A stretch of 61,254 nt of DNA, from NCBI RefSeq assembly GCF_001447785.1, contig NW_015171567.1:29116-90369 (forward strand), read 5' to 3'. The first letter of the stretch is position 1. The number at the start of each line of letters is the position of its first letter. The position numbers and the translations under genes were made by a program. This stretch comes from Gekko japonicus. Taxonomy: Eukaryota. The notes under the pieces are model-generated. The model was not told the origin of the DNA. It saw only the letters and a program-made list of their open reading frames with translations, and did not search any database. Positions 34,201-37,200 of the stretch are shown here, one piece after another.

Positions 34201-37200
34201 AAAATGAAAGGAACTGGAATATCCTGGCCCAGCTTATCTCCATTCTCTTTCCAATGGAAGCTAAGCTCATGTAGAGACTGAAATGTACTAGGATCTTGGA
34301 GACCCAGGTTCGAATCCCCACACTGCCATGAAAGCTTGCTGGGTGTCTTTGGCCCAGTCACACACTCTCAGCCTGACTTGCATCACAGGGTTGTTACGAG
34401 AACTACATGGGGGAGAAAGGTGTGCGACATGTTGGGTTCCCCCCTTTGGGGAGAAAAAGTGGGATATAAATAAAGTAAACAAGTAAGTTCTAACGTTTAT
34501 TCCTGGTTTGCCACCACTGAGGCAGACTAAGGTTCATTATCCTGCACAGAAAGGGTAGAGGAAGCCGCCTTTCACTACTTTGATAGGACTATGGGGAAAT
34601 ATTAACTCTCCCTTTTGTTCACAGTATTGACAAAGGTTTGCTGCTGTGCGACTATTAAATACGTTCTCAGTTGCCAACCAGGATGGAGAAAGAGGAGTTG
34701 AGACTGAAAAATAAGGAGTGGGGAGGGAGGGAGCTAGAAGTATGGGTGGATGAATGGCTGATCACGGAAGGAAGAGAGCAAAATGACAGAGGACAAAAGT
34801 GTAGAAAAGAGTCAGAGGAATGCAGGAAAAGACCTTTTTTCATGCGATGAAGCTGATGGGTAGTAGATTCAGGATGGACAAAAGAAAATACCTCCTTATA
34901 CAGTTATTAAAATCTGGAATTCACTGTCACAGGAGCAGGCAACTTGAAGAGGGGATTAGACAGATCCATGGAGGAAGAGTCTGTCAGTGGCTACTAGCTG
35001 TGGTGGCTAAATGGAACTGCCACACTCAGAGGCCAGAGGCAGCATCAGGGGAAGGCCTCGGCCTCCCTGCCCTGTTCGTTTGGCCCTCCAGAGGGACTGG
35101 CTGGCCCCTGTGTGAGACAGGAGGCTGGACTAGGTGGACNNNNNNNNNNNNNNNNNNNNNNNNNNNNNNNNNNNNNNNNNNNNNNNNNNNNNNNNNNNNN
35201 NNNNNNNNNNNNNNNNNNNNNNNNNNNNNNNNNNNNNNNNNNNNNNNNNNNNNNNNNNNNNNNNNNNNNNNNNNNNNNNNNNNNNNNNNNNNNNNNNNNN
35301 NNNNNNNNNNNNNNNNNNNNNNNNNNNNNNNNNNNNNNNNNNNNNNNNNNNNNNNNNNNNNNNNNNNNNNNNNNNNNNNNNNNNNNNNNNNNNNNNNNNN
35401 NNNNNNNNNNNNNNNNNNNNNNNNNNNNNNNNNNNNNNNNNNNNNNNNNNNNNNNNNNNNNNNNNNNNNNNNNNNNNNNNNNNNNNNNNNNNNNNNNNNN
35501 NNNNNNNNNNNNNNNNNNNNNNNNNNNNNNNNNNNNNNNNNNNNNNNNNNNNNNNNNNNNNNNNNNNNNNNNNNNNNNNNNNNNNNNNNNNNNNNNNNNN
35601 NNNNNNNNNNNNNNNNNNNNNNNNNNNNNNNNNNNNNNNNNNNNNNNNNNNNNNNNNNNNNNNNNNNNNNNNNNNNNNNNNNNNNNNNNNNNNNNNNNNN
35701 NNNNNNNNNNNNNNNNNNNNNNNNNNNNNNNNNNNNNNNNNNNNNNNNNNNNNNNNNNNNNNNNNNNNNNNNNNNNNNNNNNNNNNNNNNNNNNNNNNNN
35801 NNNNNNNNNNNNNNNNNNNNNNNNNNNNNNNNNNNNNNNNNNNNNNNNNNNNNNNNNNNNNNNNNNNNNNNNNNNNNNNNNNNNNNNNNNNNNNNNNNNN
35901 NNNNNNNNNNNNNNNNNNNNNNNNNNNNNNNNNNNNNNNNNNNNNNNNNNNNNNNNNNNNNNNNNNNNNNNNNNNNNNNNNNNNNNNNNNNNNNNNNNNN
36001 NNNNNNNNNGGTGGTGGATGCTCCTTCGCTGGATGTTTCCAAGTGGAGGCTGGACGGCCATCTTTCGGGTATGTTGTACCTCTAAGCTGTGGAGTCTTGT
36101 GAGCAAAAATTCTACCACAACTGCCATTAAAGTTGTGAGAGAGCAATTTGGCTACTGCCTAAATTAGTTTGCTCTGGAGCCCTCCTTCCTGAGCTGAGAC
36201 AAAAATGTGTGAGCTGGAGGCTAAAAAAACTGTGAGCTAGCTCACACTAACTCAGCTTAGAGGGAACATCGGTTAGCTGTCTTTCGGCTCTGCTACTGCA
36301 GAGTGCAGGGGGGTGGGACTTGATGACCTGTGAGGCCCCTTCCCACTCTAACATTCTATGCTTCTACGTGGCTGAAGGCCCGGAGCCAGCTGAGCCCCAC
36401 CCCACTGCACTGCCCCTCCCGCTGGCCGGGGCGGCAAAGGGACTCCACTGGGAGGAGCAAGCGGACGACGGGGTGCATACCAGGGCAGCTCCCTCTTGAG
36501 GGAGGGGATATAAGGTTGTGCGCATCAGGGCCTCTCCCCCATGCCACAGACAGCCTCCCCTGTTGGGTGGAGGGGGGGCACCCAGGGAATAATCCTAGGA
36601 AACACAAGTGTGAGTCTCCAGAGCTGCCACTTCTCCCCGAGCCTCAAGAGCCAAGTGTCAGCAAGCTGCCAAATGTTTGTTTTCCTTCTGTGAGTGTGTG
36701 TTCGCTTGCATCTGGTTGTGTATGCTTGTAGATGCGCATGGCTTTGTAGCTCGCCGTAACAATTATTTCTCCCAAGGCCACAGGTGGACGCCGGCTTGTT
36801 AGTGCAGAGGAAGCTCTCATGAATCACCGTGAGAAGAAGATAACATGAGAGACTTGGAGCCGTTAGTTCTCAGGCCCAAAGGCGCGAGCAGGGAAAGTCT
36901 GCAAGCGTGGGGGAAGCCCCGCAATTGGGCAGTCGTGGTTTGAATGTTTATTATATGCTTAGCCATTGCCTGTATGCCCCATTCTGAACAGTGACCATGT
37001 TATGGACCTTCCAGCTCTAATAAAGTTACCTTTCTTTAAAGCGTGCTTATTATGATGCCAAGAGGAGTCTGACATTCTGTTCAGAATCCTATCGTCCTCC
37101 ATCTCTGCAAACCTATCGATATCGATATGAGTGCCGGAGAGGAGAACCTTCATCCCCCAGATGGGAAAGAACCGGCAGGGCCAGATATGGGAAGTGTCCC

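What the first reader, a model, noticed from the sequence alone, without database searches (positions are those of the whole stretch)
36947..37087. tRNA-independent self-priming signature in a reptile LTR retrotransposon
Seen: there is no TGG-type tRNA PBS. Instead CTGTTCAGAAT (37077-37087), 2 nt after the LTR, is the exact 11-nt reverse complement of ATTCTGAACAG (36981-36991). That sequence lies ~30 nt downstream of the TATA-like box, at the predicted transcript 5' end. The 11-mer is retained in the other two LTR pieces (near 44218 and 60135). Established: S. pombe Tf1 primes reverse transcription with the first 11 bases of its own RNA, released by RNase H, and the same has been proposed for sushi-group elements. 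Inference: a recently active squamate family uses this mechanism.
Basis: partly seen in the sequence, partly recalled or inferred. Interest (0 to 1): 0.7.

Follow-up and report, generated by a model that had tools for sequence, protein, structure and literature searches.

The report
Self-primed Gypsy retrotransposons in a lizard
A broken jumping gene in a reptile genome has, where a host tRNA would normally bind, 11 letters that pair with its own terminal repeat, and related families keep the pairing with different letters, so the group likely starts copying itself with its own RNA, a trick shown in fission yeast and long proposed for this group in vertebrates.

Summary
Observation confirmed. 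37077-37087, 2 nt after the 5' LTR, is the exact reverse complement of 36981-36991 (5 of 5,000 shuffles), and there is no TGG-type PBS. The element is a defective Ty3/Gypsy copy; fuller family members carry a chromodomain. The covariation test asked for is passed: in 25 aligned copies 256 of 257 cells pair and 3 of 11 pairs change on both sides. A second lineage (RT 41-57% identical) keeps a 10-bp pairing with other letters. The arm starts at pyrimidine|purine in 44 of 44 copies, with an A/T peak at -30 to -26, so it is predicted to be the transcript start; RNA-seq did not locate the start. Tf1-type side helices are weak. 'Recently active' is overstated for this copy, and the two other LTR pieces are not independent evidence. 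Self-priming is shown for Tf1 and already inferred for vertebrate Tf1/sushi elements, so this is a well-supported new member of a known kind. The scan noted the same signature before in other genomes (e.g. e1-7938631).

The parts
36656..37074 (+). 5' LTR, 419 bp, TGT...ACA
   Evidence: ends confirmed in family copies
36947..36956 (+). A/T-rich TATA-like box, about -30 from the predicted start
   Evidence: A/T fraction 0.84 at -30..-26 against 0.45-0.66 elsewhere in 19 representatives
36981..36991 (+). Predicted self-primer (predicted first 11 nt of the RNA, in an initiator-like CC|ATTCT context)
36998..37002 (+). Possible side helix arm (TGTTA) pairing with the LTR end at 37070-37074; weak support
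   Evidence: 91.5% of cells paired, one pair changed on both sides in 2 rows
37019..37024 (+). AATAAA polyadenylation signal (+39), placing R just downstream of the self-primer
37077..37087 (+). Primer-binding site, complementary to the self-primer, no TGG
37587..38615 (+). Gag frame (capsid domain); gag is split from its upstream part
   Evidence: PF03732, PF19259
38814..40484 (+). Pol frame: RT and a truncated RNase H. An internal deletion of about 1.6 kb near 40422 removes the end of RNase H and the whole integrase
40600..40610 (+). Polypurine tract before the 3' LTR
   Evidence: sequence
40613..40905 (+). Left (U3) part of the 3' LTR, 286 of 290 aligned bases identical to the 5' LTR
44186..44311 (+). 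Right LTR piece (R-U5), 119 of 126 identical to the 5' LTR. It may come from another copy: the flanks CCAAG and CAATG do not form a TSD
60064..60173 (-). Isolated LTR fragment, 99% identical to 44191-44299, fused to a LINE RT fragment

Best explanation
This is the 5' end of a defective Ty3/Gypsy retrotransposon whose family carries a chromodomain and likely primes reverse transcription with its own RNA instead of a tRNA. Shown: the 11 nt after the LTR pair exactly with an 11-mer inside the LTR, and relatives keep this pairing with different letters. Predicted: RNA polymerase II starts at 36981, about 30 nt after the A/T box, so the 11-mer is the RNA's 5' end and folds onto the PBS, closing a loop of 85 nt. 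Inferred from Tf1: the element's RNase H would cut after base 11 and leave a 3'-OH, and RT would copy U5 and R to make minus-strand strong-stop DNA. Inferred from recalled retroviral practice: if the plus strand copies the primer to rebuild the PBS, a change at the RNA start is handed to the PBS, which would itself produce the covariation. This copy lacks the end of RNase H and the integrase and could not do this on its own.
For: Exact 11-bp match, 5 of 5,000 shuffles. Family copies with an internal region: 14 of 17 perfect, 2 with one G-U, 1 with a deletion; 12 of 12 solo or 3' LTRs pair only 1-5 of 11 with what follows them; 1 of 30 loci unmapped. Lineage 1 alignment (25 rows, 24 distinct): 256 of 257 cells paired, 3 pairs changed on both sides in 15 cells, covariation score 0.192 against 0.071 (0 of 500 shuffles); slid controls pair 23-50% and score at most 0.064. 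Each primer pairs best with a PBS of its own type. Lineage 2: 16 of 23 perfect 10-bp, 4 with 9, and the 3 misses recover 10, 9 and 8 pairs in the 3' LTR. Pyrimidine|purine at -1/+1 in 44 of 44; A/T peak at -30..-26. The helix is predicted to form, pair probabilities 0.59-1.0, z = -2.5. Chromodomain in L133 and L135. The mechanism is described for Tf1 and the Tf1/sushi group.
Against: No read pile-up marks the predicted start in three RNA runs, for this element or for the young lineage-2 family; the libraries look unstranded and are not cap-selected. The two side helices of the Tf1 'pretzel' are not established: 4 of 52 duplex tests reach p<0.05, cognate-versus-swapped p = 0.12. Two of the five measures are not above the shuffles (pairs changed on both sides 83 of 500; further pair types 184 of 500), and 15 of the 25 rows are one family. 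Within family A the 11-mer ranks only 77th of 409 LTR windows for conservation. 13 of 60 fetched loci gave no PBS-like motif; 2 of these (L093, L094) have an LTR pair and a best match of only 7 of 10. The tRNA set tested was incomplete.
Confidence: 0.84

Rival explanations
1. The helix is real but serves another purpose, such as hiding the poly(A) signal in the 5' LTR or packaging the RNA, and priming happens some other way.
For: The helix can form only at the 5' LTR, and the predicted fold pairs AAUAAA with U5.
Against: The downstream arm starts exactly 2 nt after the LTR end in both lineages, which is the primer position, and no other primer site is seen. Lineage 2 keeps the pairing across about 200-380 nt with no A[A/T]TAAA between the arms.
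Confidence: 0.06
2. The element primes itself, but not by the Tf1 route: the RNA starts further upstream, or the primer comes from a second RNA molecule or a processed small RNA.
For: The start site is not observed; pretzel side helices are weak.
Against: Initiator-like context in 44 of 44 copies and the A/T peak at -30..-26 put the start at the first base of the arm.
Confidence: 0.06
3. A host tRNA or tRNA fragment is the primer, and the LTR match is incidental.
For: Most LTR elements use tRNAs, and the host tRNA set tested was incomplete (48 distinct ARAGORN hits, 28 of 50 labelled Ala(ggc) and probably SINE-derived).
Against: No TGG. Best match to the 48 sequences is 7 nt. The 6 genome sites with the 11-mer within 30 nt before a T-loop motif are not tRNA genes. 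The PBS differs between sister families and follows the LTR arm each time, which one fixed tRNA cannot explain.
Confidence: 0.03
4. Chance match, or an inherited local inversion without function.
For: 2 of 3,508 internal 11-mers also have a reverse complement in the LTR.
Against: Fixed offset of 2 nt and compensatory changes in two distant lineages.
Confidence: 0.01

Closest known systems
Tf1/Tf2 of Schizosaccharomyces pombe (self-primed Ty3/Gypsy chromoviruses)
   Same: An 11-nt self-primer complementary to the PBS next to the 5' LTR, no tRNA PBS, chromodomain on the integrase (passages of PMC7175516; 10.1101/2022.12.06.519325).
   Different: In Tf1 the start site and the cut between bases 11 and 12 are shown; here they are predicted. 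The two side duplexes that Tf1 needs are weak here.
[quoted passage not shown]
   Same: Vertebrate chromoviruses for which self-priming was already described (passages of PMC6317226; PMC4600332, citing Butler et al. 2001, which was not held). [quoted passage not shown] Nearest named RT relatives are squamate elements at 57-68%, fish ones at 45-49%.
   Different: No paper on self-priming in squamate elements came up in my searches. Here there is per-position covariation in two squamate lineages, with 11-nt and 10-nt primers and arm-to-LTR-end distances of about 95 and 300 nt.
Tj1, Tosmo1-3, Tcry1, Tcn1 clade
   Same: Self-priming predicted from PBS-LTR complementarity, the same kind of evidence.
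   Different: Fungal or plant hosts; a pretzel fold was reported for the fission-yeast elements.

Membership tests
Tf1/sushi chromoviruses | Ty3/Gypsy layout: gag, then RT, RNase H, integrase between LTRs | tested here: met
   Window: gag, RT, RNase H. Family copy L133: RNase H, integrase zinc domain, integrase core (E 3e-6, under the curated cut-off), SH3, chromo. Best solved relative is Ty3 RT.
Tf1/sushi chromoviruses | Chromodomain at the end of the integrase | tested here: met
   PF00385 at or over the cut-off in 2 of 2 family copies tested (L133 27.6 bits, L135 25.2 bits; cut-off 25.1). Deleted in the window's copy.
Tf1/sushi chromoviruses | RT phylogeny inside the fungal/vertebrate chromovirus cluster | tested here: inconclusive
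   47-row tree: the window's RT sits in a squamate clade (100/100) among fish, amphibian, fungal and algal homologues, but no named Tf1 or sushi-ichi sequence and no outgroup was in the tree.
Tf1/sushi chromoviruses | No tRNA-complementary PBS | tested here: met
   No TGG; at most 7 nt against 48 tRNA-like sequences; 6 pattern hits are not tRNAs. The tRNA set is incomplete.
Tf1/sushi chromoviruses | PBS complementary to a stretch of the element's own LTR, conserved by compensatory change | tested here: met
Tf1/sushi chromoviruses | The self-primer is the 5' end of the transcript | tested here: inconclusive
   Sequence signature supports it; RNA-seq shows no start there.
Tf1/sushi chromoviruses | Three-duplex 'pretzel' leader | tested here: inconclusive
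   Central duplex strong. A 5-bp upstream side helix is 91.5% paired with one pair changed on both sides. Downstream side helix not above controls.
Tf1/sushi chromoviruses | RNase H cut after the primer, and priming from it | not testable with these tools
   Needs biochemistry or sequencing of replication intermediates.

The most novel reading that the evidence does not exclude
Squamate chromoviruses run a pared-down self-priming switch: a bare 10-11-bp duplex between RNA start and PBS, without the full Tf1 pretzel, that works over loops from about 85 to about 370 nt. The invariant pairs would mark what RNase H recognises. The natural variants in this one genome, with an expressed young lineage, would make vertebrate self-priming directly observable for the first time.
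Probability: 0.3. Interest if true: 0.5.

Novelty: new member of a known kind. Interest (0 to 1): 0.33.

Why it matters
Self-priming is shown by experiment for Tf1 in fission yeast. For vertebrate Tf1/sushi elements, the group linked to PEG10 and RTL1 (abstract of PMC4340606 in the listing), I found only inference from sequence. Compensatory change in two distant reptile lineages makes that inference much firmer and gives exact predictions (start base, primer length) that cap-selected RNA data can test. It does not reveal a new mechanism.

Tried and rejected
RNA evidence for the start site. No RNA holder was listed for the stretch. Three raw RNA runs and one contig set laid on 36500-37700 gave 194, 29, 129 and 30 records, mostly under 95% alike, with U3 covered like R/U5 and no start pile-up. 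The same three RNA runs on the young lineage-2 LTR gave 1,471, 28 and 379 reads. Depth rises from U3 through R into U5, but the only listed end points (7258, 8000, 8670) are not at the predicted start 8572. Both lays are inconclusive.

Pretzel side helices were tested three ways and not established. The bacterial promoter scan does not apply to this host and is not used. A complete host tRNA set could not be had: the Rfam search scored 63 of 451,162 candidates, and I fetched the surroundings of 20 of its 59 matches. The 11-mer as a uniquely conserved island within family A is rejected (rank 77 of 409). The two extra LTR pieces are rejected as independent support. No donor locus for the zinc-finger insert was identified: the best paralogues are 90-98% alike over parts only.

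The primary Tf1 and sushi papers (Levin 1995, Lin and Levin 1997 and 1998, Butler 2001) and two reviews were not held. I know them only through citing passages. Butler 2001 may already include reptile elements.

Full report
Observation. The 5' LTR spans 36656-37074 (TGT...ACA). After TT comes CTGTTCAGAAT (37077-37087), the exact reverse complement of ATTCTGAACAG (36981-36991), and the match extends by no base either way. A match of 11 nt or more arose in 5 of 5,000 dinucleotide shuffles of the LTR, and 2 of 3,508 internal 11-mers have a reverse complement in the LTR. An A/T box lies at 36947-36956 and AATAAA at +39. Folding from 36981 gives the 11-bp helix with pair probabilities of 0.59-1.0; 3 of 200 shuffles fold as well.

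The element. It is a Ty3/Gypsy retrotransposon with gag (PF03732, PF19259), RT and RNase H; its best solved relative is Ty3 RT. The nearest named RT relatives come from squamates (57-68%, best a gecko protein), then other squamate and fish elements at 45-49%. This copy is dead. Gag is split, and about 1.6 kb are deleted near 40422, removing the end of RNase H and the integrase. The 3' LTR is interrupted by LINE pieces and a zinc-finger segment. Its left part is 98.6% and its right part 94.4% identical to the 5' LTR. The flanks CCAAG and CAATG do not match, whereas 9 of 11 scored relatives have a perfect 5-bp TSD (2 more not scored), so the right part may come from another copy. Two fuller family members, L133 and L135, carry a Tf2-type SH3 domain and a chromodomain.

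Conservation in the family. A search of the own genome scored 40 of 666 candidates and gave 30 loci, the window's own included. Of 17 with an internal region, 14 pair 11 of 11, two pair 10 plus a G-U, and one has a deletion in the arm. The 12 solo or 3' LTRs keep the arm but pair only 1-5 of 11 with what follows them, a negative control; one locus did not map. The arm is better kept than the 11 nt upstream (0.94 against 0.64) but ranks only 77th of 409 windows in the LTR.

Covariation. I fetched 60 stretches of up to 10 kb around hits, picked by hand to spread over scores. Blind scans for the longest reverse-complement match after the LTR end found, always at an offset of 2 nt, several different arm/PBS pairs. 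Patterns derived from these located a PBS-like motif in 47 of 60 loci; 13 gave none, and two of those (L093, L094) have an LTR pair with a best match of only 7 of 10. Lineage 1 (24 loci, RT 80-90% identical where scored): 20 pair 11 of 11, with arms ATTCTGAACAG, ATTCTAAACAG, ATTCTCAACAG and ATTCCTAACAA, and a fifth PBS type in L148 (10 of 11). On the alignment of these 24 plus the window, 256 of 257 cells pair, and three pairs change on both sides in 15 cells. The covariation score is 0.192 against 0.071 (0 of 500 shuffles); slid controls give at most 0.064. Two measures were not above the shuffles (83 and 184 of 500), and the tool warns that related rows inflate the others. RNAalifold predicts the same helix unprompted. 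Lineage 2 (23 loci, RT 41-57%): a 10-bp pairing, 16 perfect, 4 with 9, and 3 misses whose 3' LTR gives 10, 9 and 8 pairs; arms include GTGCTGGCAA, GTGCCAGCAA, GTGGAAGCAA and GTACTGGCAA. In the young family of this lineage 29 of 30 loci show the PBS, and all 29 have the perfect arm. The RT tree separates the two lineages, each with its own squamate relatives (no named reference and no outgroup, rows with under 150 aligned residues left out).

Transcript start. In 44 of 44 copies with an intact arm (4 set aside) the arm starts with a purine after a pyrimidine. Across 19 representatives of both lineages the A/T fraction is 0.84 at -30..-26, against 0.45-0.66 in the other bins. By recalled RNA polymerase II rules this puts the start on the first base of the arm. 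A strict TATA pattern near -30 was absent in many copies. RNA-seq did not settle it: no pile-up at the predicted start in three runs, for either lineage.

tRNA. The PBS has no TGG, so a mature tRNA 3' end cannot pair. The best match to 48 distinct tRNA-like sequences of the genome is 7 nt (an incomplete set, probably many SINE heads). Six genome sites with the 11-mer before a T-loop motif are not tRNA genes. The stronger argument is that the PBS follows the LTR arm from family to family.

Pretzel. Tf1 needs two further duplexes beside the central one (passage in 10.1101/2022.12.06.519325). A 5-bp helix between +18..22 and the LTR end is 91.5% paired, with one pair changed on both sides in 2 rows, but one arm is the integrase att site. 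The downstream helix reaches p<0.05 in 4 of 26 copies and the upstream test in 0 of 26; cognate against swapped partners gives p = 0.12. Inconclusive.

Mechanism. Most likely (0.84) the RNA starts at 36981, its first 11 nt anneal to the PBS, RNase H cuts after base 11, and RT extends the piece, as described for Tf1 (passage in PMC7175516). Complementarity and covariation are shown, the start is predicted, and the cut and priming are inferred by analogy.

What is known. Self-priming is given as a common feature of the Tf1/sushi group of fungi and vertebrates (passages of PMC6317226, PMC4600332 and 10.1101/2022.12.06.519325). Amn-san chromoviruses are listed for reptiles (passages of PMC4131045). 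I also read passages of PMC5341516, PMC3601003, PMC2864245 and PMC4340606; no paper was read whole and no supplement was opened. Butler et al. 2001 and the Levin papers were not held and may already cover reptiles. Eight searches listed no paper on self-priming in squamate elements, judged from listings and the passages named. Earlier notes of this scan report the same signature in other genomes and superfamilies (unchecked).

Verdict. A real feature and a correct reading, expected for this group: a new member of a known kind, with unusually clean covariation support. Interest 0.33.

Noticed in passing
window 40906-44185: The 3' LTR is split by two 99% identical LINE 3' ends (40909-41208, 43387-43686) that enclose a C2H2 zinc-finger frame of 298 aa (41224-42120) and its flank. 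With the TSD mismatch and the uneven LTR identities this suggests recombination between LINE copies or a mis-join. Paralogues are 90-98% alike over parts. One contig of run X11 holds the LINE-to-LTR junction near 44190 (compared by eye).
   Followed up: partly
window 60064-60173: A 110-bp LTR fragment, 99% identical to 44191-44299 some 16 kb away, is fused in inverted orientation to the upstream end of a LINE RT fragment (60174 onward). It may be local DNA captured at a LINE 5' junction.
   Followed up: partly
G000, loci L031-L060, L091, L092: A very young, distant chromovirus family: 105 of 150 scored gag hits have the same top score, the LTRs of L092 are 99.86% alike, and 1,471 reads of run X13 lay on it, internal region included. 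It has the 10-bp self-priming signature.
   Followed up: partly
L092:8562: 12 reads of run X13 leave the reference at one point, one base after the 3' end of the predicted self-primer. Probably a sister subfamily whose R differs after the arm; not examined.
   Followed up: no
window 37074-37087: The LTR end plus PBS is itself a small inverted repeat (5-bp stem, 4-nt loop) that could compete with primer annealing; the predicted fold prefers the long-range helix.
   Followed up: no
window 10900-17200: Exons of a RhoBTB-like gene on the + strand (Rho GTPase and BTB-like segments seen in the translations; name recalled, not tested).
   Followed up: no
L091:660-1020: A long inverted repeat upstream of the self-primer in one young copy, with no LTR pair detected; possibly an inversion in its 5' LTR.
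   Followed up: no
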